A stretch of 64,000 nucleotides of DNA from an uncultured Gammaproteobacteria bacterium (lineage in GTDB: Bacteria > Patescibacteriota > Patescibacteriia > Magasanikbacterales > GWA2-37-8): the NCBI GenBank assembly GCA_964634875.1, contig CAZWKA010000003.1, positions 16,591-80,590 of the forward strand. Reading direction: 5' to 3'. The position numbers and the translations under genes are program-made. The notes under the pieces are model-generated. The model was given only the letters and a program-made list of their open reading frames with translations, was not told where the DNA came from and did no database searches. Each line of letters starts with the position of its first letter. Position 1 is the first letter of the stretch. This document shows, in pieces, positions 34,350 to 55,431 of the stretch.

Positions 34350-36398
34350 ATGCCTGCTAAACCTCAGCATTTCAGCAAGACGCCGACGCATTCCCAGGTA
34401 AAATCGAGACTGGCCGGTATTTTAATACTCGTTGTTTTTTGTGCAGTTGTGGCTGCGCCAGCCTACGCCAATAAAGGTATTGATTGGGTAAACAACACCG
34501 CCAACCTCGGGTTGCCCCGATTACCGGATAACGGTTACAACCTTGGTCTTGATCTCCAGGGTGGCGCACACCTCGTGTACCAAGCGAAAACAGATGCTAT
34601 TGCCGAAGCTGATAAAGCTAGTTCGGTTGAGGGTGTGCGTGATGTTATCGAGCGTCGTGTCCGTGGTGGTTTGGGTGTATCAGAACCGCTCGTCCAGACG
34701 ACTAAGGTTGGGAGTGATTACCGCATCATTGTTGAACTGCCTGGCGTGACGGATGTTAATCAGGCGATTAAGAGTATTGGCGAAACACCTGTTCTAGAAT
34801 TTAAAGAAGAAAATACTGCCCCACCACGGGAATTGACTGCAGCCGAAACAAAACAGCTCACTGATTTTAATAAAGCCGCTGATACAAAAGCGAAAGAAGC
34901 CCTTCGGGCAGTGCAGCGCGGCATGAACTTTGCTGAAGCCGCGGCTAAGTATAGTGAGGATGAAAAAACTAAGACCGCCGGCGGAGATCTAGGTTTTATT
35001 GATGAGACCGTCTATCCAGAATTATTTGCCTGGGCTAAAACCCACAAAGTAAATGAAGTCGGTAATGCTTTGGTTACGACGCCGACAGGTCTGAATGTCG
35101 TAAAAAAAGTAGCAGAAAAAGAGGGTGAAAAAGAAGTTACAGCTTCGCACTTGCTGATTTGTTTTGCCGGTGCCACGCGCTGTGATGACGCGCAATATTC
35201 TAAGGAAGATGCTCTTAAGAAAATCCAGGAAATTAAAGCAACGATTACTCCAAAAAACTTTGCCGAAAAGGCAAAAGAATTTTCGACTGAACCCGGGGCT
35301 GACCAGAGCGGTGGCGTACTTGGCACTTTTAAAAAAGGAGCTTTGGTAAAACCGTTTGAGGATGCTGTTTGGGATCAGAAAGTTGATACCATTTCTGAGC
35401 CAGTGGAAACGGAGTTTGGTTACCATCTTATCCATAAGACCGGTGAGGCAATCGCTAAGCAGTACCAGGTTGCTCGCATTTTGGTAGCCACTAAAACCAA
35501 GACAGATATCGTCCCACCAGCAGAACAGTGGAAATCAAGCGGCCTTACCGGTAAGCAGCTCGAACGAGCCGAGGTTACCCAAAACCAAATTACCGGAGAT
35601 ATCCAGGTAAGCCTTAATTTTGATGATGAAGGTTCTAAGTTATTTGCTGATATTACCGGCCGTAATGTGGGGAAAGCAGTAGCTGTTTTCCTTGACGGTG
35701 AAATTATCAGTGCCCCGGTTGTTAACGCGGCAATTACCACGGGGAGTGCGGTAATTACGGGTGGGTTTAGCTTGACTGACGCTAAGCTTTTGGCGCAGCG
35801 CCTTAATTCAGGTGCGTTGCCGGTACCAGTTGAGCTCCTCAGCCAGCAAACCGTGGACGCTACGCTTGGTGCTGATTCGCTTGATAAGAGTTTCCGTGCT
35901 GGTGTCTTTGGTTTGATTGCAGTTATGGTCTTTATGATTCTTTATTACCGCTTACCAGGCCTTTTGTCCGTACTATCCTTGGCTTTCTACGCCCTCCTGA
36001 GTTTGGCGGTATTCAAATTGATGGGTGTAACATTGACGCTCTCTGGTATTGCTGGGTTTATTCTTTCCATCGGTATGGCGGTTGACGCTAATGTGCTTGT
36101 ATTCGAGCGTCTTAAAGAAGAGTTGGCTGCGGGTCGAACGCTTAAGTCAGCTACTGAAGAAGCCTTTATTCGTTCGTGGCCTTCAATTCGTGATAGTCAT
36201 ATTACCGCCCTCATCAGCTGTGTCTTCTTGATTTGGTTTGGTACTGGGTTTATCCAAGGTTTTGCCGTTATCTTGGGAATTGGTACTTTAATTAACCTGT
36301 TTACCGCCATCACGGTAACGAGGACAGTCATGCGGTCGGTTTTCCCTTTCCTTAATGAAAAAGGAAATATTCTCTTTTTAGGATATAAAAAAGATTAA
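34350..36398 (+). CDS. secD: protein translocase subunit SecD with two inserted parvulin-type PPIase domains
   Basis: The SecD N-terminal TM helix and C-terminal 6-TM RND-like domain are present. Two parvulin signatures are inserted in the periplasmic domain: AGGDLGFIDETV and SGGVLGTFKKGALVKPFEDAVW. Confidence 0.8.
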   Translation: MPAKPQHFSKTPTHSQVKSRLAGILILVVFCAVVAAPAYANKGIDWVNNTANLGLPRLPDNGYNLGLDLQGGAHLVYQAKTDAIAEADKASSVEGVRDVIERRVRGGLGVSEPLVQTTKVGSDYRIIVELPGVTDVNQAIKSIGETPVLEFKEENTAPPRELTAAETKQLTDFNKAADTKAKEALRAVQRGMNFAEAAAKYSEDEKTKTAGGDLGFIDETVYPELFAWAKTHKVNEVGNALVTTPTGLNVVKKVAEKEGEKEVTASHLLICFAGATRCDDAQYSKEDALKKIQEIKATITPKNFAEKAKEFSTEPGADQSGGVLGTFKKGALVKPFEDAVWDQKVDTISEPVETEFGYHLIHKTGEAIAKQYQVARILVATKTKTDIVPPAEQWKSSGLTGKQLERAEVTQNQITGDIQVSLNFDDEGSKLFADITGRNVGKAVAVFLDGEIISAPVVNAAITTGSAVITGGFSLTDAKLLAQRLNSGALPVPVELLSQQTVDATLGADSLDKSFRAGVFGLIAVMVFMILYYRLPGLLSVLSLAFYALLSLAVFKLMGVTLTLSGIAGFILSIGMAVDANVLVFERLKEELAAGRTLKSATEEAFIRSWPSIRDSHITALISCVFLIWFGTGFIQGFAVILGIGTLINLFTAITVTRTVMRSVFPFLNEKGNILFLGYKKD

Positions 36399-36422: not shown

Positions 36423-37337
36423 ATGAAAAAAATTCCTTTTATTAAGTACCGAAAGACCTGGTTGGCACTTGCCTTGATTACCCTTGTTATTGGCGCAGGC
36501 ATGCTCTTGAAATGGGGTCTCAAGCCAGGTATCGATTTTACTGGTGGGTCACTTTTTGAACTGTCGTTTGGCAGTGCTGCTCCGGCAACAGAACAGATTG
36601 AACAGAATATAAAGAGTCAGGGTGTTGAAGAAGTGATTGTCCAGCGCTCAAGTGATAACCGTTTCATTATTCGTACTGGTTTTTTGAACGAAGACCAACA
36701 CCAGAAAGTTATCGGAGCACTCCGGAAAGAATTTGAGAATAAAGATCGTTCGCTTACCGAAGACCGGTTTGAGACTATCGGCGCCACCATAAGCCAGCAG
36801 CTCCGGCAGCGGTCACTCTGGGCGGTAATCCTCGTGAGTCTGAGTATTATTTTGTATGTTGCATTTGCTTTCCGTCAGGTTAATCGTCCGTTGCCTAGTT
36901 GGCAGTATGGTTTGATTGCAATCATAACCCTTTTGTATGTTGTTGTTATCGTTGGAGGTGTCTTTGCTGCGCTCGGCCGGTTTAAAGGGGTTGAAGTCGA
37001 CGTGGCGTTTGTGGTAGCAATATTGACTGTACTTGGCTATTCGGTAAATGATAGCATCGTCGTATATGACCGTATCCGCGAAAATTTAACCCGGAATCGA
37101 ATCGATGATTTTGGCGAGCTCGTTAATACCGGGCTTAATGAAACATTGGCTCGTTCAATTAATACCGTGGCAGCTGTTTTGTTTCCATTGTTTGCCCTGT
37201 ATTTTTTTGGCGGTTCGACTGTTCATTATTTTGCCTTAGCCTTGCTCCTGGGTATGGCTATTAGTACAATTTCTTCTATTTTTGTCGCCAGTCCGCTTTT
37301 GGTAGTAGCTGAAGAATGGCAGCGCAAGAAGGCCTAA
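36423..37337 (+). CDS. secF: protein translocase subunit SecF
   Basis: 304 aa. One TM helix, a periplasmic domain, then 5 TM helices. Immediately downstream of secD. Confidence 0.85.
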   Translation: MKKIPFIKYRKTWLALALITLVIGAGMLLKWGLKPGIDFTGGSLFELSFGSAAPATEQIEQNIKSQGVEEVIVQRSSDNRFIIRTGFLNEDQHQKVIGALRKEFENKDRSLTEDRFETIGATISQQLRQRSLWAVILVSLSIILYVAFAFRQVNRPLPSWQYGLIAIITLLYVVVIVGGVFAALGRFKGVEVDVAFVVAILTVLGYSVNDSIVVYDRIRENLTRNRIDDFGELVNTGLNETLARSINTVAAVLFPLFALYFFGGSTVHYFALALLLGMAISTISSIFVASPLLVVAEEWQRKKA

Positions 37338-37370
37338 GAAATTCTTGGACTCTTCGCAGTAAAAAATCAT

Positions 37371-37408
37371 CTTAACAATCTTGCCTTGCCAGGTAAGATT
37401 GTTTTTTT
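37371..37408 (+). terminator. rho-independent terminator after secF
   Basis: AACAATCTTGCC-ttgcc-AGGTAAGATTGTT followed by TTTTTT. Confidence 0.7.
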
Positions 37409-37503
37409 ATCAAGAATATGGTATATTCTCATTAAAGTATGAAAACACTGGGATGGTAAAACATGATCTCTTTTACTAGCGCGGTGTTTTAATGTTTTAT
37501 GGT

Positions 37504-37665
37504 ATGAGCGACTCCTTTATACGTCATATTGTGGCTCTTATCGCCACCCTTATTTGTTTGATGGCCTATTTTGCCGGGTATGTATCTGGCGGTTTTGGGT
37601 GGTGGTGGACAGGGTTTGCGTTGCTTATCATTTATGGCGGGGTGTACCGGATTATTGATAAGTAA
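37504..37665 (+). CDS. 53-aa two-helix membrane protein (not in ORF track; candidate pilin-like/VirB2-like subunit, speculative)
   Basis: ATG at 37504 and TAA at 37663-37665. Translation MSDSFIRHIVALIATLICLMAYFAGYVSGGFGWWWTGFALLIIYGGVYRIIDK. Ends 21 bp before the next gene. Confidence 0.3.
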   Translation: MSDSFIRHIVALIATLICLMAYFAGYVSGGFGWWWTGFALLIIYGGVYRIIDK

Positions 37666-37686
37666 ATTTGAAATTTGTAGTGCGGT

Positions 37687-39153
37687 ATGGAAACTTTTTT
37701 GACACTACCTTTTGGCATATCGTTCAGCCTCTCGTTTTGGCAGAACCTTTTTTTGTTACCTCCATACCAGCTCATTATCATGATTTTTGCGATCGGTGGC
37801 TGGGCAGTCTTGGCGCTTATTTTTTTCTTTATGGGCTCTGAGCTCTGGAAGGACTACCGCCAGGGTAAGTACACTAAAAATTGGCAGTGGGTTGTTTTAG
37901 CAGTAGATGTTCCGGCGCTTTTTATCCAAACGCCAAAAGCAGTTGAGCAGATTTTCGTACATCTGAGTGGGGCTAAAACAACCCCAAATGTGGGCGAAAA
38001 GTATTGGCAAGGTAAAAAGCAGAAGAGTTTTAGCTTTGAAATTGTCAGTATTGAAGGGTATATCCAGTTTTTAGTCCGTTCTGAAGTTGAATACCGTGAT
38101 TTAGTAGAGGCGGCTATTTATGCCCAGTATACTGAAGCCGAGATTACGGAGGTTGAAGATTACGTTGATAATATTCCTACGCACTATCCCCACCCAAATT
38201 ATGATATGTTTGGCATCGAATTTGCGCTCGATAAACCAAGTCCATTTCCCATTCGTACATACCCTAGTTTTGAGTATAACCTGAGTAAAGATGCGGTATT
38301 TAGTGACCCCATGGCGGCAATTCTGGAAAATTTTAGCCGTATTGGGCGAGGAGAAAATTTTTGGATGCAAATTATTTTAGAACCAATTAGTAGTAAGTGG
38401 AAAGAAGAGGGGATCGAACTTGTTAAATCAATTATAGCGAACAAGGGGTATTCGGGTGGACACGGAGGCCATGGTGGCGGTGGTAGCATGTTAACGGGTG
38501 CTTTGTCGGCAGTCATGGGGGTTTTGCACGTCATCATTAAAGAAATTGGCAGTGCACTTCTTGGTGGGGGCGAAGAGGAACATGGTGGAGGGCATGAGGA
38601 CGCACACGAAGAAGGCAAACTTAGTGACCTGTCACCTGGTAATAAGACGGTCATTGAGGCGGTTGAACAGAAAATTTCTAAAATTGGTTTTAAAACTAAG
38701 TTGCGTATTCTGTATGCGGCGCGTAAAGAAGTGTTTAACCCAAGCAAATGTCTTGACGGTTTTGTGGGGGCGATGAGTCAATTTAACATCCAAGACAGCA
38801 ATTCCCTGGTGCCGCACCATGATACTTCCGCGCAGTATTTATTTGCTAAATCCCGAACCGACCATCACAAACACCATTTTACTAGCGCTTTTAAGAAACG
38901 TAAGTTGAAGGCGCTTGGGGATCCTTATATCCTCAATATTGAAGAGCTAGCGACAATTTGGCATTTCCCGCTGCCGTTTGTTAAAACGCCACTTATTCAG
39001 AAAGCTGGTGCCAAGCGTGCCGAACCTCCGATGGGTCTACCCGTCGAAGCCAGCGAAAGCCCGCTCAAGCGCCGTACGCCGGTCCCTCAGGCAGCGCCGC
39101 CGCAATCAACCGTGCCGGTACAGGAAGCACCCGAAGATTTGCCCTATGGTTAA
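37687..39153 (+). CDS. membrane protein homologous to the N-terminal (non-ATPase) half of the VirB4-like ATPase at 48943..51498, with Gly/His-rich insert
   Basis: N-terminal TM helices. FEIVSIEGYIQFLVRSEVEYRDLVEAAIYAQYTEAEITEVEDY parallels FEIVVKENKISFYVAVPDKIRDLVEQQIHAQYPHAEITEESDY in the 851-aa protein. EELATIWHFPLPFVKTP parallels EEMASFWHLPVPHTETP. No P-loop. Confidence 0.5.
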   Translation: METFLTLPFGISFSLSFWQNLFLLPPYQLIIMIFAIGGWAVLALIFFFMGSELWKDYRQGKYTKNWQWVVLAVDVPALFIQTPKAVEQIFVHLSGAKTTPNVGEKYWQGKKQKSFSFEIVSIEGYIQFLVRSEVEYRDLVEAAIYAQYTEAEITEVEDYVDNIPTHYPHPNYDMFGIEFALDKPSPFPIRTYPSFEYNLSKDAVFSDPMAAILENFSRIGRGENFWMQIILEPISSKWKEEGIELVKSIIANKGYSGGHGGHGGGGSMLTGALSAVMGVLHVIIKEIGSALLGGGEEEHGGGHEDAHEEGKLSDLSPGNKTVIEAVEQKISKIGFKTKLRILYAARKEVFNPSKCLDGFVGAMSQFNIQDSNSLVPHHDTSAQYLFAKSRTDHHKHHFTSAFKKRKLKALGDPYILNIEELATIWHFPLPFVKTPLIQKAGAKRAEPPMGLPVEASESPLKRRTPVPQAAPPQSTVPVQEAPEDLPYG

Positions 39154-41818: not shown

Positions 41819-43075
41819 TTATTTTACAATCGGTACTTCTTTAATTGCCGTAGTAAAGCGTTGTGATTTGTGTTCGCTCAGCATACTCCATTTCTTTTTA
41901 ATGCCACTCCCAGCCATAAAAAGGGTGTCTTTTCCAAAATGACGGTTAACCTGGTCAACCGCTTTCATAAGTTCTTTATTTTTTTCAAACGCAACCGTTG
42001 TAAAGAGGTTTTGTTGAATCGTGTTTTCTGGTAGTAGCCCCACGCAGCAGACGCCGGCTTTGGCGTAGCGGTAGCCCTCACGGTAAATGGCGTCTACCAG
42101 CTCCATGGCCTTGCTAACTAAGAGTGGGGTGTATGAACTGGCTACGGGCAGGTGAATGCCTTTGCTGCCGATGTATTTTTTATCAAGGTTAAAATGGTTG
42201 GTGCGGATGTAAATATAAAAATATGAGGTTACTAATTTCTCCTCGCGCAGTTTTGCTGCGGCGCGTTCGGTGTATGTTGCCACCGCTTCTTTGAGCTCGT
42301 CTTTGGTAGTGATCGGTGTGCCAAACGAGCGCGTGCACATAATGCCTTTTTTTGGTTCCGGATTATCATCCAGCTTGAAGCAGGGGATGCCGCGCAGCTC
42401 GTAGACAATATGAAGGCCAGAGATGCTCAGATTTTTACGGATCCAAGCGTCTGGGCGGGCAAGGAGTTGTCCGGCGGTCATGACACCAAGCACCTTTAAT
42501 TTTTTGGTTGATTTTCGGCCGATGCCCCAGAGCTCTTCAACAGGTAGGTCGTGCAGGATGAAGTCTACGTCCTCGTTGGCAATGTCGCAGACACCGTTAA
42601 AGTAGGGGTATTTTTTGGCTAGGTGGTTTGCTACTTTGGCAAGAACCTTAGTTTTGGCAATACCGATTGAAACCGGGATGCGTGTCCACTGACGCACGGT
42701 CTGACGAATTTTTTGCCCTAAGGCTTCATTGCCCTGATCACCGGTAAATTTTAAGAAAGCTTCATCGATGGAATATACCTCTATTTCATCAGTGAATTGT
42801 TCAAGGGTCGTCATAACCCGCTGTGAGATGTCACCGTAGAGTGAAAAATTTGATGAAAAGACTTTGACATTATTTTTCTGAATAATATCTTTATATTTAA
42901 AGCATGGCGCCCCCATAGGAATACCTAAGTCTTTTACTTCTTTGGAACGCGAAATAAAGCAGCCGTCGTTATTCGACAAAACAGCTACCGGCACTTTTTC
43001 GAGAGCTGGTTGAAACGCTCGTTCACACGAGACAAAAAAATTATTGCAATCGACGAGAGCAAAGACTTCGGACAC
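41819..43075 (-). CDS. umuC: Y-family translesion DNA polymerase (UmuC-like)
   Basis: N-terminal ALVDCNNFFVSCE...VLSNNDGC...SIDEAF motifs. Confidence 0.85.
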   Translation of the reverse strand: MSEVFALVDCNNFFVSCERAFQPALEKVPVAVLSNNDGCFISRSKEVKDLGIPMGAPCFKYKDIIQKNNVKVFSSNFSLYGDISQRVMTTLEQFTDEIEVYSIDEAFLKFTGDQGNEALGQKIRQTVRQWTRIPVSIGIAKTKVLAKVANHLAKKYPYFNGVCDIANEDVDFILHDLPVEELWGIGRKSTKKLKVLGVMTAGQLLARPDAWIRKNLSISGLHIVYELRGIPCFKLDDNPEPKKGIMCTRSFGTPITTKDELKEAVATYTERAAAKLREEKLVTSYFYIYIRTNHFNLDKKYIGSKGIHLPVASSYTPLLVSKAMELVDAIYREGYRYAKAGVCCVGLLPENTIQQNLFTTVAFEKNKELMKAVDQVNRHFGKDTLFMAGSGIKKKWSMLSEHKSQRFTTAIKEVPIVK

Positions 43076-43080
43076 AGAGG

Positions 43081-43518
43081 TTATTTTACTTGACGAACCA
43101 CACCGGTCACGACACCGAGAATGGTAAAATTGTCGTCGGGGTTAATAAGGAGTGGGGCATAGTCCGGGTTTTCGGCTTTGAGCCAGGTTTTGCCTTTATC
43201 CTGCCAAAAGCGTTTCACGAGGAATTCACCTTCTACTGCCGCGACTACAATTTTATTGTGCATGGGTCGAAGCGATGCGTCAACCACGAGCAAGTCGCCG
43301 TCACAAATAGCGGCGCCTTCCATAGAAGAGCCGCTGACGCGAACCAGGTAGGTAGCCGGACGATTGTGGATTAAAAGATCGTTCAGATCAATTGTGTCTT
43401 CCACGTAGTCGTCAGCAGGGGATGGAAAACCTGCGGAAAGCGGGCTCGAGTATAAAGGGAGTGTGGTCGTTTTGCTGGGGCGCGGTAGAAATAGTTTTGT
43501 AGTTTTAGAAAGTTCCAT
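43081..43518 (-). CDS. umuD: LexA/UmuD-like S24 peptidase (UmuD)
   Basis: Ser-Lys dyad context VSGSSMEGA ... VKRF. Stop lies 5 bp before the umuC start. Confidence 0.75.
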   Translation of the reverse strand: MELSKTTKLFLPRPSKTTTLPLYSSPLSAGFPSPADDYVEDTIDLNDLLIHNRPATYLVRVSGSSMEGAAICDGDLLVVDASLRPMHNKIVVAAVEGEFLVKRFWQDKGKTWLKAENPDYAPLLINPDDNFTILGVVTGVVRQVK

Positions 43519-48942: not shown

Positions 48943-51498
48943 TTATAACGTAGCTTCGCTGAAATCTATATCATCAGGTTTGCTGGAACCAAGCTGGGCA
49001 CGATCCATGATTTCGGCATTGACGATCTCGCGCGGACGGCCATATTTGAGGCGGGAAAGTTCTTTGATGGCAGCCGCTAGTTCCTTGTTACCTTCTTTGG
49101 GACCGTATGTCAACATATTAAAAGGTTTGGCAGCAGTATTGTCGATAAGAAGTTTAATATACGCAGTATATTGTTCGACGTTAATCAGGTCGTACGCACC
49201 AAATACAGGCGCGAATTCCTTGGCGAGAACTTCGGCGTCTTCAACACCGATACGGAAGGAAACAAGTGTGCCCGCGTTACCAAGCACGGCGTCGCGCACT
49301 GTGGTTTTACCTTTGTTGTCTTCAAGTTGCTTCATGTACTGGTGGGCAATGATTAACTCTAAGCGATACTTGCGAGCTTCGGATAAAATGGTGGCAATCG
49401 AGTCAGTAATAAAGTTTTGGAACTCATCGATGTAGAGGAAAAAGTCGTTGCGCTGGTCTTCTGGAAGCGAGGCGCGCTCCAGGGCAGCCATCTGAAGTTT
49501 GCTTACAATAATCATGCCCATCAGGTTGGCATTAATTTCACCCACTAAACCTTTGGCTAGGTTAACGAGGAGAATTTTTTTACCATCCATCACTTCGCGG
49601 AAATTAAAGCCGGAATGTGATTGGCCGATGATGTTACGAACCATTTCGTTTTCAACAAAACGTCCGACTTTGGAGATGAGATAGCCGAGCATTTCTGATT
49701 TGTGGAAGTCAGATGTTTTAGCCATTTCTTTATCCCAATAAGCGCGCACCACCGGATCTTTCAGTTTTTTCTTCCACTGATTTACAAAGGTGTCGTCGCT
49801 GAACATGCGGGGAATTTCAGCAATAGTGCCCGGGTTTTCAAGGTCCGACATGAGGGTTAACATGACGTTGCGCATGTTATGCTCAAACATTGGACCGATC
49901 ATCGACGGATCAGTAACCATTTTATAAAAAATGGAGATCATTTCTTGAGTGGCAAAGTCTTTTTGTTCCTCGCTTCTGACCTCGAGCATGTTCAGGCCGA
50001 TCGGGCGTTCAATGTCTGAGGGGTTGAAATAAATAACATCGTCGGCACGCTCTTTGGGGACGTGTTGCAGTACGTATTCGACAAAGTCACCGTGGGGATC
50101 GATAACACAGACCCCCTCACCGTTTTGGATGTCTTGAACTGCCAGGTTTTGGATAAAGACCGATTTACCGCCACCCGATTTACCGATGACATAGAGGTGT
50201 CGCCGGCGGTCGGAAACTTTCATTTTTACGAGTGTTTCTTCGCCACGGTACATGGCGCGTCCTAAGAGGAGGCCTTCTTTAGGCATGTTGGCTGGCGGCG
50301 GCGCTTTACGGGCTCCGAGCCAGTTAATGTGAGGGGTTTCGGTGTGAGGGACGGGAAGGTGCCAAAAACTAGCCATCTCCTCGGTATTCATAACCATGTA
50401 AAAACCTTCGCGCATGGAGCGATAGATCGACTCTTGGATCAGTGCGGTTTGGCGACGGGGGATGGCTGCGCCAAACGAATTGCCGTAACGGTAAATATTG
50501 TACTGGCTGAAGGAGTTGATGATGTTCTCAAGATTCAATTGGGCTTTTTCTTTGCTAGCAGCTGAGCTGATGAGGCGGATTGTAACTTCAAGTCCGCCGT
50601 GGCTGATTTTTTCTTCCATGTTTTTGACCATCTCTTCTTCCATTTGGGTGAGGTGGTATTTTTCACTGGCTGGTTTACTTGGGTCGTGCTTTTTTGGGAA
50701 AAGCAATTTGCCCAACTTCCCAATTTGGTGGAAAAAAGCGATGCGGTTGGCAACATCCTCAAATTTTTGGCCTTCGCGGATTTCGCGGATGATGTGCACA
50801 GCTTCATGGCGCCATTTTCCGCTGGCTGGACGGACGACATATTGGATGATAGCACCTTCATCTTCAGCGATTTTGCTCAGCGGGTTGAGGATGGAAAGAA
50901 GCGGGTCAGCGTCCATTTTTTTGTAGGTTTTGAAAGGAAAAATTGATTTGTGTTTGAACCACAAATAAGCTCCAACAACATGGCTCGTTGGCTTAAAAAT
51001 GTTATAATCGCTTTCCTCGGTAATTTCGGCGTGTGGATACTGGGCATGGATTTGTTGTTCGACCAGGTCGCGGATTTTATCAGGTACGGCAACGTAAAAT
51101 GAGATTTTGTTTTCTTTTACGACAATTTCAAAAGCAATATGGTCATTGCGTCCGCGCAGCCAAGGGCCCAGTCCTTTTTCTTTGTGCAAACCGGCGATGG
51201 AAGAAAAGAAAGTGTCAGCAACGGCGATTTGTTCACGGACCTGGTTGATATTGTCTTCATTGCCACCTTCTTGTTTTTCACTTTTTCTTTCTTTGGGGAC
51301 ACGGATAAGGAAGATGGTGCGGTGGAATGCCTTGCCTGCTTTATTTTTAGCGTGCAAAACCCCTCGAGCCGTAAACAAAATAGCCAGGAAAATTCCGACT
51401 ATGATAAGGCAGAAGAAAATAGCCGCGCTAATCGGGCTCGCTAGAGCGGCGTTGGCCGCTTCCCTTAGAAAATCAATAAAAGGGGTCAAGAGTTCCAT
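48943..51498 (-). CDS. membrane-anchored FtsK/HerA-superfamily ATPase, VirB4/TraC-like (N-terminal TM + ~420-aa domain + P-loop NTPase)
   Basis: Walker A VIGKSGGGKS, Walker B FFLYIDEF, then EARKYRLELIIAHQY (RKxG...TQ-like). Confidence 0.55.
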   Translation of the reverse strand: MELLTPFIDFLREAANAALASPISAAIFFCLIIVGIFLAILFTARGVLHAKNKAGKAFHRTIFLIRVPKERKSEKQEGGNEDNINQVREQIAVADTFFSSIAGLHKEKGLGPWLRGRNDHIAFEIVVKENKISFYVAVPDKIRDLVEQQIHAQYPHAEITEESDYNIFKPTSHVVGAYLWFKHKSIFPFKTYKKMDADPLLSILNPLSKIAEDEGAIIQYVVRPASGKWRHEAVHIIREIREGQKFEDVANRIAFFHQIGKLGKLLFPKKHDPSKPASEKYHLTQMEEEMVKNMEEKISHGGLEVTIRLISSAASKEKAQLNLENIINSFSQYNIYRYGNSFGAAIPRRQTALIQESIYRSMREGFYMVMNTEEMASFWHLPVPHTETPHINWLGARKAPPPANMPKEGLLLGRAMYRGEETLVKMKVSDRRRHLYVIGKSGGGKSVFIQNLAVQDIQNGEGVCVIDPHGDFVEYVLQHVPKERADDVIYFNPSDIERPIGLNMLEVRSEEQKDFATQEMISIFYKMVTDPSMIGPMFEHNMRNVMLTLMSDLENPGTIAEIPRMFSDDTFVNQWKKKLKDPVVRAYWDKEMAKTSDFHKSEMLGYLISKVGRFVENEMVRNIIGQSHSGFNFREVMDGKKILLVNLAKGLVGEINANLMGMIIVSKLQMAALERASLPEDQRNDFFLYIDEFQNFITDSIATILSEARKYRLELIIAHQYMKQLEDNKGKTTVRDAVLGNAGTLVSFRIGVEDAEVLAKEFAPVFGAYDLINVEQYTAYIKLLIDNTAAKPFNMLTYGPKEGNKELAAAIKELSRLKYGRPREIVNAEIMDRAQLGSSKPDDIDFSEATL

Positions 51499-51524: not shown

Positions 51525-52025
51525 TTATTTTTTGATGTGCACGATCCGATCGGTTTTGATCTTTGCTTCTTGTTCCAGGAAAAAACGGTTCACACCCGGC
51601 AGTAATTTAAGCCATTCAAAAATAAGCTTAAAGATTTTTTTAGCTTTGATATGGGTTGAAAGCATGAGTTCTCGGATTTTGAGAGCCACTTCTTCACCTT
51701 TGATCTTAAATTCCTGTTTAGCGACAGGGGAGAGTCGTTGGTAAGAATCCCCCAGGCCTTCTTCAAGAACTTTTTCAATACTGATGGTGATCTCGTCGCG
51801 TTTGACGGGGATGACTACTTTTTTAGGGCGGTGCAGGCTCGGAAAATGAAAACGAGCCTCGGGGTTTTTACCTGGGCCAGTGGATTTTTCATTCCCAGAA
51901 GGCTCCTCACGCAGGACTTCATGGGCGCGTTCCGGGCTCGGGGTGCTTTTCCCTTGTTCGGGGCCAGGAGCGTTTTTTGGTTTTTCAAATCGAGAGGGCG
52001 AGAGTGGAAGTTCGTTGTCACTCAT
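51525..52025 (-). CDS. hypothetical protein upstream of and co-oriented with the VirB4-like ATPase
   Basis: ORF with an ATG at 52025. The ORF track extends it to a TTG at 52064. Charged, Lys-rich C-terminus. Confidence 0.4.
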   Translation of the reverse strand: MSDNELPLSPSRFEKPKNAPGPEQGKSTPSPERAHEVLREEPSGNEKSTGPGKNPEARFHFPSLHRPKKVVIPVKRDEITISIEKVLEEGLGDSYQRLSPVAKQEFKIKGEEVALKIRELMLSTHIKAKKIFKLIFEWLKLLPGVNRFFLEQEAKIKTDRIVHIKK

Positions 52026-52207
52026 AGTGCTCACTAGTGTAGCATGTTTTTTGCCCAACAACAATATCTTGTGGGAGCGAAATTTAAAAGTATGTTACTC
52101 TCGGTTTGTCATTCTGAGTGAAGCGAAGAACCTCTTCGAAAAGTCTTTCTGTATCCTGAGGCGGACATTGATCGGTCAGCGGTTCGGGGGCGGATTGGTT
52201 CTCTTTA

Positions 52208-53822: not shown

Positions 53823-54998
53823 ATGTTTTTTTCCAAGCCAAAGTCTTTTTTAGGCATTGATTTTGGAGCTGGCGGCATTAAGCTTGTTGAGCTCAAACAA
53901 GAAAAGAATCGTCCGGTTCTTTTTACGTACGCAATTGCTCTTGAATCACAGGACATCCATCGTGTTTTGAAGCCGGGCGCTGAACGAACGCTTGGGGATC
54001 TGTTGAAAGAAAAAACCTTACCGGAAACGCGTCCGGCGAGCCAGGTTCAGACTGAAACAGTTGCCGCCCCAGAAGACGGCCTCGATGCGGCGAAGATTGC
54101 ACGTTATGCAGCGCTTATCCGATCGGTTTGCAAACAGGCGCGTACCGTGAGCACGACGGCGGTAGTCAGTTTGCCGGTGTCAGCAGTGTTCCACACTATT
54201 GTTAATTTGCCGATTGTTAAAAAGGATGAGATTGATGCTCTTTTAAAAGCCGAGATACGCAAATTACTGCCGTATAAGCTGGAAGACACCGCCCTTGATT
54301 ATGAGCTTTTGCCGCACGCACCTGATGCTAAGGTGCAGACGGTTTTAGTCAATGCGGTTCCGAATAGCATGGTTTTGTTTTTTTCCAAGGTTTTTCAGCA
54401 GGCTGGTCTAAAGTTACATGCTTTAGAACCTGAATCAGTAGCTCTGGCTCGTTCGCTTATTGGCCGCGATACAGCGCTCACAATGATTATCGATATTGGT
54501 GCGGAGCGAACAAATTTTTTTATCATTGATCAGACCGTCCCGATTACGCACCATAGCATCGAGCTCGGGGGCAACAGAATAAATAAAAACCTGGCGAACA
54601 TGCTCGGAGTTGATGATGGTGTGGTAGAACGCCTAAAAGAAGACCTTTTTAATTACCTGCTCCGGTACCCTGAAACAGCTGGTATTGGTCGTGAAAAGTT
54701 TTTAGCATTGTTTACGACTGTGGTTGATCCGATAATGAAAGAGATTGCCTATAGTTTCAACTTGTATCTGCGGCAAACCTGGAATGAAGCCAAGCGTCCG
54801 GAAAAAATTATTTTGACTGGTGGCGGCGGGTTATTTCCTTTTTTAGCTGATTTTATTAGTGAAACCTTTAAGATCAAATGCTATATTGGTGACCCTTGGG
54901 GACGCGTGGTCTATCCCGACACTTTAAAGCCCGTGCTGCGTGATATCGGGCCACGTATGGCGGTTGCGATTGGCCTTGCGCTCAAGAATCTGGTATAA
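53823..54998 (+). CDS. pilM: type IV pilus assembly protein PilM (actin-like ATPase fold)
   Basis: N-terminal LGIDFGAGGIKLVEL. Overall actin/Hsp70-like pattern with a C-terminal ILTGGGG. Confidence 0.75.
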   Translation: MFFSKPKSFLGIDFGAGGIKLVELKQEKNRPVLFTYAIALESQDIHRVLKPGAERTLGDLLKEKTLPETRPASQVQTETVAAPEDGLDAAKIARYAALIRSVCKQARTVSTTAVVSLPVSAVFHTIVNLPIVKKDEIDALLKAEIRKLLPYKLEDTALDYELLPHAPDAKVQTVLVNAVPNSMVLFFSKVFQQAGLKLHALEPESVALARSLIGRDTALTMIIDIGAERTNFFIIDQTVPITHHSIELGGNRINKNLANMLGVDDGVVERLKEDLFNYLLRYPETAGIGREKFLALFTTVVDPIMKEIAYSFNLYLRQTWNEAKRPEKIILTGGGGLFPFLADFISETFKIKCYIGDPWGRVVYPDTLKPVLRDIGPRMAVAIGLALKNLV

Positions 54999-55050: not shown

Positions 55051-55431
55051 ATGGACAAAGATAAAGCTCATATTTTGCTGGTAGAGGATGATGTGTTTTT
55101 ATCGAATATCTATCAGAAAAAGTTTGAAATGGAGGGGTTCAAGATCAGTACTGCAGACAATGGTGAAAAAGGTTTGGCAGATGCAAAACGCAAGAAGCCA
55201 GATATTATTTTGCTTGATGTCCTGCTGCCCAAGCTCGATGGTTTTGCTGTGCTTGAAAAATTGAAAGAAGATCCGGCGACAAAAGAAATTCCTGTCATCC
55301 TCCTGACCAACCTCGGCCAGAAAGATGATGTAGAAAAAGGCTTAGAATCTGGTGCGGCTGATTATTTGATTAAAGCCCATTTCAAACCATCGGAAGTTGT
55401 GGATAAGGTGAAAAAAATATTGCAGCAGTAG
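55051..55431 (+). CDS. single-domain response regulator (CheY/PilH-like)
   Basis: ILLVEDD ... DIILLDVLLPKLDG ... LTN...K. Confidence 0.8.
   Translation: MDKDKAHILLVEDDVFLSNIYQKKFEMEGFKISTADNGEKGLADAKRKKPDIILLDVLLPKLDGFAVLEKLKEDPATKEIPVILLTNLGQKDDVEKGLESGAADYLIKAHFKPSEVVDKVKKILQQ

What the first reader, a model, noticed from the sequence alone, without database searches (positions are those of the whole stretch)
37504..39153. A 53-aa two-helix membrane ORF followed by a VirB4-N-terminal-domain-only paralog with a Gly/His-rich insert
The 488-aa product is clearly homologous to the N-terminal ~420-aa membrane-proximal domain of the 851-aa ATPase located 10 kb away. Several blocks are conserved, including FEIV..E..I.F.V.....RDLVE..I.AQY..AEITE..DY and EE.A..WH.P.P...TP. 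It lacks the P-loop domain entirely and contains a GGHGGHGGGG...EEHGGGHEDAHEEG insert. It is preceded, 21 bp upstream, by a small ORF whose product (two hydrophobic helices, WWW motif) has the size and character of VirB2/TrbC-like or pseudopilin subunits. An ATPase-less duplicate of a secretion-ATPase accessory domain is unusual and may act as a structural or stator component.
Basis: partly seen in the sequence, partly recalled or inferred. Interest (0 to 1): 0.65.

Follow-up and report, generated by a model that had tools for sequence, protein, structure and literature searches.

The report
Membrane half of split secretion-type ATPase
A conserved two-gene unit in a candidate-phyla-radiation (Patescibacteria) bacterium encodes a tiny two-helix membrane protein and a membrane-anchored protein with the fold of the VirB4 N-terminal domain. 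It is the ATPase-less half of a widespread but uncharacterised split motor, not a one-off oddity.

Summary
A 53-aa two-helix ORF (37504-37665) lies 21 nt upstream of a 488-aa ORF (37687-39153). The 488-aa product is a paralogue (BLASTP E=1e-28) of the N-terminal ~410 aa of the 851-aa ATPase at 48943-51498.

- **ATPase class:** the ATPase domain of the paralogue is coupling-protein-like (TrwB/TraD) by sequence, not VirB4-like.
- **Not unusual:** the 488-aa protein belongs to Pfam DUF8128, with more than 570 clusters at 50% identity.
- **Split system:** in 45 of 80 related genomes its orthologue is followed directly by a separate N-domain-less ATPase gene. The 851-aa fused protein is an ancient paralogue of that system.
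- **This clade:** the ATPase gene is not adjacent. One Magasanikbacteria genome carries it unlinked.
- **Gly/His "insert":** this is a clade-specific composition of a loop present across the family.
- **Small ORF:** it is a real gene. It resembles VirB3 in position and topology, not a pilin.

The substrate and function are unknown.

The parts
37374..37411 (+). Intrinsic-terminator-like hairpin (13-bp stem plus T-run) after secF. It makes the small ORF plus the 488-aa ORF a separate transcription unit.
   Evidence: sequence
37504..37665 (+). 53-aa membrane protein with two hydrophobic helices joined by a GGFGWWW loop. An alternative ATG lies at 37492. Orthologues start at the position equivalent to 37504.
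37687..39153 (+). 488-aa stand-alone DUF8128 protein: an N-terminal TM helix, a cytoplasmic alpha/beta domain with the VirB4 N-terminal-domain fold, and a disordered tail. It has no ATPase domain.
37762..37848 (+). Single strong transmembrane helix (aa ~26-54) followed by a basic stretch (KDYRQGKYTK), so the domain faces the cytoplasm.
38440..38634 (+). Variable loop (aa ~252-316). Gly/His-rich linkers flank a hydrophobic or amphipathic helix (aa 267-291). The loop is family-wide; its Gly/His composition is confined to this clade.
38935..39048 (+). Most conserved motif of the family, IEELATIWHFPLPFVKTP...KRAEPPxGLPVE (aa ~417-454). In the fused paralogue this is the linker that runs into the ATPase domain, so it marks the fission point.
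39127..39150 (+). C-terminal short motif PEDLPYG. It corresponds to PPxNLP(F/I/V) at the extreme C-terminus of nearly all stand-alone DUF8128 proteins and is a candidate docking peptide (inferred).
48943..51498 (-). 851-aa fused paralogue: a TM helix, a DUF8128 domain (aa ~60-410; nt 50269-51498 cover aa 1-410) and a T4CP-like ATPase domain (aa ~411-851; nt 48943-50268).
51525..52064 (-). Conserved ~165-179-aa hypothetical gene that always sits directly upstream of the fused paralogue. It is a possible further component; this was not tested.

Best explanation
The 488-aa protein is the membrane-anchored, ATPase-less N-terminal half of a two-gene (split) motor that is core to many Patescibacteria.

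**The split system**
- The first gene encodes a DUF8128 protein with one TM helix and a cytoplasmic domain of VirB4-N-terminal-domain fold.
- The second gene encodes a soluble ATPase that lacks the N-domain and belongs to the coupling-protein (TrwB/TraD/VirD4) branch of the HerA/FtsK superfamily.
- In the common arrangement the two genes are adjacent, and the break falls exactly at the linker that is continuous in the fused 851-aa paralogue.

**Inferred mechanism**
- By analogy with VirB4, the DUF8128 subunit tethers the ATPase ring to the cytoplasmic membrane and organises it. VirB4 N-domains embed in the membrane, join protomers and bind VirB3 and VirB8.
- The conserved C-terminal PPxNLP-type tail is a candidate docking peptide.
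- The 53-aa two-helix protein, found in the Magasanikbacteria-type lineages, packs against the TM helix as a VirB3-like small membrane partner.

**In this genome's clade**
- The ATPase gene is no longer adjacent.
- The partner is most likely an unlinked ATPase-only gene, as seen in one Magasanikbacteria genome. Otherwise it is the fused paralogue 10 kb away.

**Shown:** homology, fold, orthology to the split system, gene order, and selection on both ORFs.

**Inferred:** physical assembly, the role of the tail and of the small protein, and the substrate. The substrate is probably a nucleic acid, given the T4CP-type ATPase and the Zn-finger/Lys-rich tail of the split ATPases.
For: - **Paralogy:** E=1e-28.
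- **Family size and conservation:** 2185 or more homologues carry PF26449; there are 1772, 1209 and 573 clusters at 50% identity at E<=1e-3, 1e-10 and 1e-30. Identity is 53-82% across Magasanikbacteria.
- **Split operon:** in 45 of 80 species-representative loci the DUF8128 ORF is followed directly by a separate ATPase ORF that is 40-48% identical to aa 410-851 of the window's ATPase. Examples are L039 (471 aa then 516 aa) and L047, a complete chromosome with secF, a 55-aa ORF, a 513-aa ORF and a 683-aa ORF, the last starting 3 nt after the previous stop.
- **Metagenomes:** 43 of 58 loci show the same adjacency.
- **Orthology:** the N-domain of this clade is 38.6% identical to N-domains of the split lineages, the same as within-group diversity. 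The fused N-domain is 22.7% identical to either. ATPase domains are 66.5% identical split-to-split and 43% fused-to-split.
- **ATPase class:** hhalign against TrwB gives 97.3% probability and E=2e-11, against 4.5% for TrwK. Pfam hits are TrwB_AAD_bind, T4SS-DNA_transf and TraG-D_C.
- **Unlinked ATPase-only gene:** found in Magasanikbacteria GCA_002787355.1 as PIR04088.1.
- **Small ORF:** conserved, under constraint, and part of three-gene operons in L033, L034, L036, L047 and L064.
- **Role of VirB4 N-domains and features of VirB3:** review PMC12857230.
Against: - No physical interaction was tested or modelled.
- The DUF8128 domain has no detectable sequence similarity to VirB4, TrsD or TrsE; the link is fold-level only.
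- The window contains no ATPase-only gene. Whether this genome has one elsewhere cannot be known from 64 kb.
- The genome with the unlinked ATPase was not shown to belong to the same subclade, nor to have a DUF8128 gene that lacks a downstream ATPase gene.
- The ATPase part of the 851-aa model is low-confidence (pLDDT 30-60).
- The T4CP homologue of Southlakia was reported as non-essential (PMC12102498). The system may therefore be accessory.
Confidence: 0.62

Rival explanations
1. The 488-aa protein partners with the fused 851-aa paralogue. Its N-domain would pair with the N-domain of the fused ATPase, as the outer and inner VirB4 protomers are joined by their N-domains in the R388 machine. 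It would then act as a catalytically silent scaffold or stator around one ATPase ring.
For: - Both genes co-occur and are loosely linked (7-10 genes or ~7-10 kb apart) in the window and in several Magasanikbacteria genomes. Locus tags are UX39_C0012G0015/G0005 and A2754_02865/02830. In GCA_030647465.1 they lie at 157 kb and 166 kb.
- VirB4 protomers are connected through their N-domains (PMC12857230).
- The window holds no other ATPase of this type.
Against: - The two N-domains are only ~23-26% identical, and the duplication predates the split lineages. Each therefore probably has its own partner.
- In most lineages the orthologue has a dedicated ATPase gene right next to it.
- The linkage may be plain synteny among close relatives.
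Confidence: 0.2
2. The protein is a functional orphan. The clade lost the split-type ATPase, and the DUF8128 protein with its 53-aa partner was retained for an ATPase-independent membrane role. One possibility is an envelope or secretion-associated scaffold linked to SecDF.
For: - No ATPase ORF follows the gene in about 30 loci of the clade.
- The protein remains strongly conserved.
- secD/secF lie upstream in 50 of 80 loci.
- The clade has its own features: Gly/His loops, and the small ORF in nearly every locus.
Against: - A Magasanikbacteria genome keeps an unlinked ATPase-only gene.
- The fission-point motif and the C-terminal tail motif remain conserved in the clade, as expected if an ATPase partner still exists.
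- The secDF adjacency is interrupted by a terminator, and in other lineages by an unrelated gene.
Confidence: 0.12
3. The protein is a component of a canonical conjugation-type T4SS encoded elsewhere. It would be a TrsD-like or VirB3-VirB4-like accessory working with a true VirB4.
For: - The fold matches the VirB4 N-domain.
- TrsD, an ATPase-less protein remotely related to the VirB4 N-terminus, is the most abundant T4SS component in Patescibacteria and usually sits next to virB4 (PMC12102498).
Against: - The large ORFs of the window that were scanned against Pfam include no virB4, virB6 or virB8 gene.
- In orthologous loci the adjacent ATPase is T4CP-like, not VirB4-like.
- hhalign of the family profile against pGO1 TrsD and TrsE finds nothing.
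- T4CP homologues of Patescibacteria are almost never near virB4: 148 of 5713.
Confidence: 0.06

Closest known systems
VirB4 (TrwK of plasmid R388), N-terminal domain
   Same: - A membrane-proximal alpha/beta domain placed N-terminal to a HerA/FtsK-superfamily ATPase in the fused paralogue.
- A small two-TM protein gene lies directly upstream, as virB3 does.
   Different: - It carries its own TM helix.
- The associated ATPase domain is T4CP-like by sequence.
- No other T4SS genes are nearby.
- Here the domain is a separate polypeptide.
TrsD/TraD of pGO1/pSK41-type Gram-positive T4SS (ATPase-less protein remotely related to the VirB4 N-terminus, encoded just upstream of the VirB4 gene trsE)
   Same: - The same logic: an N-domain-like protein encoded separately and immediately upstream of the ATPase gene. 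This is seen in the orthologous split operons.
- VirB3-like small membrane protein genes precede it (pGO1 gene order).
   Different: - TrsD is 227 aa against ~470-500 aa here.
- No profile match.
- The partner of TrsD is a VirB4; the partner here is T4CP-like.
- In the window itself no ATPase gene follows.
Type IV coupling proteins (TrwB, TraD, VirD4) and the 'orphan T4CP homologues' of Patescibacteria (Quinonero-Coronel et al. 2025, PMC12102498)
   Same: - The 851-aa paralogue and the split ATPases match T4CP models (TrwB_AAD_bind, T4SS-DNA_transf, TraG-D_C).
- They are evidently among the 5713 T4CP homologues found in 2918 Patescibacteria genomes, of which only 148 are near virB4.
   Different: - Canonical T4CPs have two N-terminal TM helices and no large N-domain.
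- Here there is one TM helix plus a ~350-aa VirB4-N-domain-like module, either fused or encoded as a separate protein.
- No relaxase or T4SS context.
EccE of mycobacterial type VII secretion (ESX-3/ESX-5)
   Same: - A membrane-anchored, ATPase-less cytoplasmic alpha/beta domain that accompanies an FtsK-like secretion ATPase (EccC).
   Different: The match is only partial, there is no sequence similarity, and the machine and phylum differ.
VirB3 (for the 53-aa ORF)
   Same: Two TM helices with short cytoplasmic ends, and a gene immediately upstream of the gene encoding the VirB4-N-domain-like protein.
   Different: - 53 aa (~6 kDa) against 10-15 kDa for VirB3, and no C-terminal helix.
- No family hit.
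- Present in only 34 of 80 loci.

Membership tests
Pfam DUF8128 (PF26449) | Match to the family HMM | tested here: met
   Precomputed PF26449 hits cover the 100%-identical database protein P0001 and all 120 listed homologues. They also cover the N-terminus of all listed homologues of the 851-aa protein and the called genes in L001-L006. The local Pfam scan returned no hit, probably because that copy lacks the model.
VirB4 family (T4SS ATPase) | N-terminal domain fold | tested here: met
   [not shown]
VirB4 family (T4SS ATPase) | Sequence match to VirB4 models (CagE_TrbE_VirB, TIGR00929, AAA_10) | tested here: not met
   The 488-aa protein has no hits. For the 851-aa protein, TIGR00929 gives E=0.032 and AAA_10 gives 15 bits, both below cut-off. 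hhalign of either domain profile against TrwK is negative.
VirB4 family (T4SS ATPase) | Walker A/B ATPase domain in the same polypeptide | tested here: not met
   The 488-aa protein ends after the linker motif and has no P-loop.
VirB4 family (T4SS ATPase) | Encoded with VirB3, VirB6 and VirB8-type T4SS genes | tested here: not met
   Neighbours are secD, secF and folD. The large ORFs of the window that were scanned include no T4SS gene.
Type IV coupling protein (VirD4/TrwB/TraD), applied to the 851-aa paralogue and the split ATPases | Nucleotide-binding plus all-alpha domain sequence match | tested here: met
   TrwB_AAD_bind E=3e-12, T4SS-DNA_transf 5.5e-10, TraG-D_C 2.8e-7. phmmer against TrwB 1e9r gives 1.4e-6. 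hhalign against TrwB gives 97.3% probability, E=2e-11. All NCBIfam TraD/VirD4 scores are far below the curated cut-offs.
Type IV coupling protein (VirD4/TrwB/TraD) | N-terminal two-TM anchor without a large N-domain; association with a relaxase or T4SS | tested here: not met
   One TM helix plus a ~350-aa DUF8128 domain. The context is housekeeping: dnaX and cysS.
TrsD/TraD family (pGO1) | Sequence or profile similarity to TrsD | tested here: not met
   hhalign of A2 against pGO1 TrsD gives 0.3% probability. The template was a single sequence, so a very remote relationship is not excluded.
TrsD/TraD family (pGO1) | Separate gene immediately upstream of its ATPase gene | tested here: inconclusive
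   Met in 45 of 80 orthologous loci and 43 of 58 metagenome loci. Not met in the window, where folD follows.
VirB3 (53-aa ORF) | Small protein with two TM helices, encoded directly upstream of the VirB4(-like) gene | tested here: met
   Two hydrophobic helices by sequence inspection; the hydropathy scan at threshold 1.6 flags only the first (alignment). It ends 21 nt upstream of the 488-aa ORF. The criteria come from PMC12857230.
VirB3 (53-aa ORF) | Size of 10-15 kDa with a C-terminal helix; family HMM match | tested here: not met
   53 aa. No Pfam, NCBIfam or PHROG hit. Database homologues have no Pfam domain.
VirB2/TrbC pilin or type IV (pseudo)pilin (53-aa ORF) | Cleavable leader or prepilin motif (G/FTLIE-type) and a pilin family HMM match | tested here: not met
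   The N-terminus MSDSFIRH runs straight into TM1. No leader, no prepilin motif and no family hit.
Physical complex of DUF8128 protein, ATPase and small protein | Direct interaction | not testable with these tools

The most novel reading that the evidence does not exclude
DUF8128 plus the T4CP-like ATPase, fused or split, would be a self-contained membrane motor of Patescibacteria that works independently of the T4SS. It would combine a VirB4-type N-domain with a coupling-protein-type ATPase, making it a third lineage beside VirB4 and VirD4 or a relic of their common ancestor.

It would translocate nucleic acid across the cytoplasmic membrane, for example during the unexplained uptake of host DNA or RNA by these epibionts. 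The split ATPases end in a treble-clef zinc finger and a Lys-rich tail. The 488-aa protein and the 53-aa protein would be its membrane stator.
Probability: 0.15. Interest if true: 0.85.

Novelty: new variant of a known kind. Interest (0 to 1): 0.55.

Why it matters
Patescibacteria carry about two coupling-protein-like ATPases per genome. These are almost never next to a T4SS, and their role is an acknowledged puzzle (PMC12102498).

This analysis shows that they come with a VirB4-N-domain-like module (Pfam DUF8128). The module is either fused to the ATPase or encoded as a separate membrane-anchored protein.

That has three consequences:
- It gives a domain of unknown function a structural identity.
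- It suggests how these ATPases are held at the membrane.
- It bears on how VirB4 and T4CP ATPases diverged.

It also nominates a concrete, testable set of candidates for macromolecule import in organisms that live off host nucleic acids: the small TM protein, the DUF8128 protein and the ATPase with its zinc-finger tail. The mechanism of that import is still described as unresolved (bioRxiv 10.64898/2026.06.21.733656).

Tried and rejected
- **Sequence-level link to VirB4, TrsD, TrsE or any solved structure:** none found.
- **Defence-system membership:** PADLOC hits only the ATPase domain (mad8, HerA) and nothing hits the 488-aa protein.
- **Prophage origin:** phrog_5156 and Bacillus phage G gp156 share the fused architecture. 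The window context is housekeeping and the genes are core across the clade, so a prophage origin is not supported.
- **Regulatory RNA in the leader:** no Rfam match in 37250-37750.
- **afdb50 fold library:** unavailable.
- **851-aa model:** the ATPase half is low-confidence, so structure could not decide between VirB4-like and T4CP-like for that domain. The decision rests on sequence profiles.
- **Small ORF in distant lineages:** not found within 3 kb in the Uhr-, Buchanan-, Falkow-, Kuenen- and Kerfeldbacteria-type loci. A stricter regex re-count under-detected it and was discarded.
- **Partner ATPase lost or relocated in this genome:** could not be resolved.
Full report
**1. What is there**

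The window is a chromosomal segment of a Patescibacteria (CPR) bacterium of the Magasanikbacteria type. Its content is housekeeping: secA, secD/secF, folD, dnaX, cysS, ligA and tRNAs. The closest homologues are all Magasanikbacteria MAGs.

After secF (36423-37337) comes a strong terminator-like hairpin at 37374-37403 with a T-run. It is followed by a small ORF (ATG at 37492 or 37504, stop at 37665), a 21-nt spacer, and a 488-aa ORF at 37687-39153. folD converges from the other strand. The pair is therefore its own transcription unit. No Rfam family matches the leader.

**2.

BLASTP of the 488-aa product against the 851-aa product of 48943-51498 (-) gives E=1e-28 with 26% identity over 351 columns. 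The 488-aa protein stops just after the conserved EELATIWHFP...KRAEPPxGLP motif. In the 851-aa protein that motif runs directly into the P-loop domain.

The small ORF is a real gene:
- An orthologue with the same two-helix layout and motifs lies upstream of the DUF8128 gene in 34 of 80 related species-representative genomes. This holds whether the upstream neighbour is secDF or murE.
- Sixteen aligned orthologues give a gapless 52-53-codon alignment. Synonymous sites are near saturation (pS 0.72) while pN is 0.37.
- It has no Pfam domain and no name in any source.

**3. What the 488-aa protein is**

It belongs to a large family. There are 2185 or more word-index homologues, and all those listed are precomputed as Pfam PF26449 (DUF8128). 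In the exhaustive search there are 1772 clusters at 50% identity with E<=1e-3 and 573 with E<=1e-30. Nearly all of the best 150 are stand-alone proteins of 414-690 aa. No paper in the searchable library mentions DUF8128.

An AlphaFold2 model built on a 78-sequence alignment is confident, with pLDDT 86.4 and pTM 0.80. It shows:
- a long N-terminal TM helix (aa ~26-63; hydropathy) followed by a basic stretch;
- a cytoplasmic alpha+beta domain;
- a low-confidence loop (aa ~252-316);
- a disordered tail.

**4. What the paralogue is**

The C-terminal half of the 851-aa protein matches coupling-protein models: TrwB_AAD_bind at 3e-12, T4SS-DNA_transf at 5.5e-10, TraG-D_C at 2.8e-7 and DUF87. It also matches TraD/VirD4 NCBIfam models, all far below their curated cut-offs, and TrwB among solved structures.

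A profile of 46 such ATPase domains aligns to TrwB with 97.3% probability (E=2e-11, 267 columns). It aligns to TrwK only at the P-loop. Source annotations call these proteins [quoted passage not shown] or VirD4. They are evidently among the 5713 T4CP homologues that Quinonero-Coronel et al. found in 2918 Patescibacteria genomes. Only 148 of those were near virB4, and the authors suspected exaptation (PMC12102498).

The architecture is thus a chimera relative to textbook families: a VirB4-type N-domain joined to a T4CP-type ATPase.

**5. The decisive context: a split motor**

In 45 of the 80 species-representative loci the stand-alone DUF8128 gene is followed immediately by a separate ORF. These loci include Uhr-, Buchanan-, Falkow-, Kuenen- and Kerfeldbacteria-type genomes and some labelled Magasanikbacteria. 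The following ORF encodes an ATPase without the N-domain, 40-48% identical to aa ~410-851 of the window's ATPase.

Two examples:
- **L039:** a 471-aa DUF8128 protein, then a 516-aa ATPase beginning ...[37 protein letters not shown]. This is exactly the point where the fused protein continues after its linker.
- **L047 (a complete chromosome):** secF, a 55-aa two-TM ORF, a 513-aa DUF8128 protein and a 683-aa ATPase whose start is 3 nt after the preceding stop.

In metagenome contigs, 43 of 58 split-type ATPase genes with enough upstream sequence have DUF8128 directly upstream.

Identity statistics establish orthology:

| Comparison | Mean identity |
|---|---|
| N-domain, window's clade vs split lineages | 38.6% (as within groups) |
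| N-domain, fused vs either group | 22.7% |
| ATPase domain, split vs split | 66.5% |
| ATPase domain, fused vs split | 43% |

The 488-aa protein is therefore the orthologue of the N-terminal half of the split system, and the 851-aa protein is an ancient fused paralogue. The closest precedent for this logic is pGO1. There, VirB2-like and VirB3-like genes precede trsD, an ATPase-less protein remotely related to the VirB4 N-terminus, which is followed by the VirB4 gene trsE.

**6. What is special in this clade**

In the window and about 30 related loci no ATPase ORF follows the DUF8128 gene. The window's only ATPase of this kind is the fused one.

The partner may be relocated rather than lost. 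A Magasanikbacteria MAG (GCA_002787355.1) carries a 580-aa ATPase-only gene that is 75% identical to a split-type ATPase. It sits among dnaG, rpoD, sod and ahpC, with no DUF8128 gene within 10 kb. I could not show that this MAG belongs to the window's subclade, and 64 kb cannot show what the rest of this genome holds.

Continued conservation of the protein (53-82% identity), of the fission-point motif and of the C-terminal tail motif argues that it still works with an ATPase. The tail motif is PPEDLPYG here and PPxNLP(F/I/V) in almost all split-lineage proteins, after a variable 27-145-aa linker.

The fused paralogue is loosely linked, 7-10 kb or 7-10 genes away, in several genomes. That keeps a hetero-assembly of the two paralogues open as a rival.

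**7. The Gly/His "insert" and the small ORF**

Every family member, including the fused paralogue, has a 48-68-aa variable loop at this position. The loop consists of a linker, an amphipathic or hydrophobic helix and a second linker. Only the Magasanikbacteria-type clade fills the linkers with GHGGHGGGG and GHEE runs.

The same clade has the small ORF, and several small-ORF homologues carry Gly/His tails such as MSGHGGGGH......GGGHH and ...SGHH. This parallel is unexplained. Metal-mediated or His-Gly contacts on the cytoplasmic face are a speculation.

The 53-aa protein has no leader peptide, no prepilin motif and no pilin or VirB3 family hit. It has two TM helices with very short ends. Its position directly upstream of a gene for a VirB4-N-domain-like protein fits the operational description of VirB3 (PMC12857230). 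It is half the size of VirB3 and lacks the C-terminal helix. I therefore call it VirB3-like in position and topology only.

**8. Mechanism proposed (inferred)**

In R388 the VirB4 N-domains embed in the membrane, join the protomers of each dimer and bind VirB3 and VirB8. By analogy:
- the DUF8128 subunit anchors and organises the T4CP-like ATPase ring at the cytoplasmic membrane;
- in the split form it recruits a soluble ATPase in trans, possibly through its conserved C-terminal peptide;
- the small protein packs against its TM helix.

The substrate is unknown. Three features point to nucleic acid: the T4CP-type ATPase, the treble-clef zinc finger (PF23477, E=9e-10), and the Lys-rich tail conserved at the end of split ATPases. 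This matters in a phylum whose uptake of host nucleic acid is unexplained. The Southlakia T4CP homologue was reported as non-essential.

**9. Verdict**

The claims of rarity, of a true insert and of pilin character do not.

The family is catalogued only as a DUF. I could not find its VirB4-like fold, the split-versus-fused organisation or the associated micro-protein described in the searchable literature. I rate it a new variant of a known kind, of moderate interest.

Noticed in passing
L047:4521-6572 (also alignment A5 of split ATPases): Split-type ATPases end in a conserved CxxC...VPFxPDGxRPVxCxDCY treble-clef zinc finger (PF23477 zf_Tbcl_2, E=9e-10) followed by a long Lys-rich tail. This suggests nucleic-acid binding. 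The window's fused 851-aa paralogue lacks it.
   Followed up: partly
window 51525-52064 (-); L005:4505-4999; L006:4502-5014: A ~165-179-aa hypothetical protein always sits directly upstream of the fused DUF8128-ATPase gene. Its N-terminus is variable and disordered, and its C-terminal ~90 aa are highly conserved (...EWLKxLPGVNRFFLEQEAKIKTD). It has no family hit.
   Followed up: partly
L007, L025, L027, L031, L032, L038, L044, L064 small ORFs; window 38440-38634: Gly/His runs occur both on the termini of some small-ORF homologues and in the loop of the DUF8128 protein, in the same clade only. This co-variation is unexplained.
   Followed up: partly
window 34350-36398: SecD carries PPIC-type peptidyl-prolyl isomerase (Rotamase) domains inserted in the protein (aa ~249-363). 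The SecDF of L001 shows the same.
   Followed up: no
L003:6762-8179: A diversity-generating-retroelement-like pair (bAvd plus a reverse transcriptase) lies between the DUF8128 gene and the fused ATPase gene in GCA_030647465.1.
   Followed up: no
Bacillus phage G JN638751.1 90952-93072 (gp156); phrog_5156: The whole fused architecture (DUF8128-like N-domain plus ATPase) occurs in a jumbo Bacillus phage and in a PHROG family of unknown function. The 851-aa protein matches phrog_5156 at E=3e-92 and the 488-aa protein at E=5e-11.
   Followed up: partly
window 53823-54998 and 55051-55431: A PilM-like gene (inferred from synteny with the PF11104-annotated gene in L006) and a response-regulator-like gene sit next to cysS, close to the fused ATPase. 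Type IV pilus genes therefore lie nearby.
   Followed up: no
window 41819-43075 and 43081-43518 (-): An operon of a UmuC-type translesion polymerase and a LexA/UmuD-like protein lies between the two DUF8128 genes.
   Followed up: no
L169-L171 (GCA_002787355.1 PCWN01000007.1): In this Magasanikbacteria genome the ATPase-only gene lies ~7 kb downstream of a fused secDF gene, with dnaG, rpoD, sod and ahpC in between. This may be a remnant of the ancestral secDF-DUF8128-ATPase order after rearrangement.
   Followed up: partly
L039:1751-2881 and similar genes in L050, L058, L077, L078, L081, L084: In several non-Magasanikbacteria lineages a protein with a sigma-70 region-4-like part and a HARE-HTH-like C-terminus is encoded between secF and the DUF8128 gene.
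   Followed up: no
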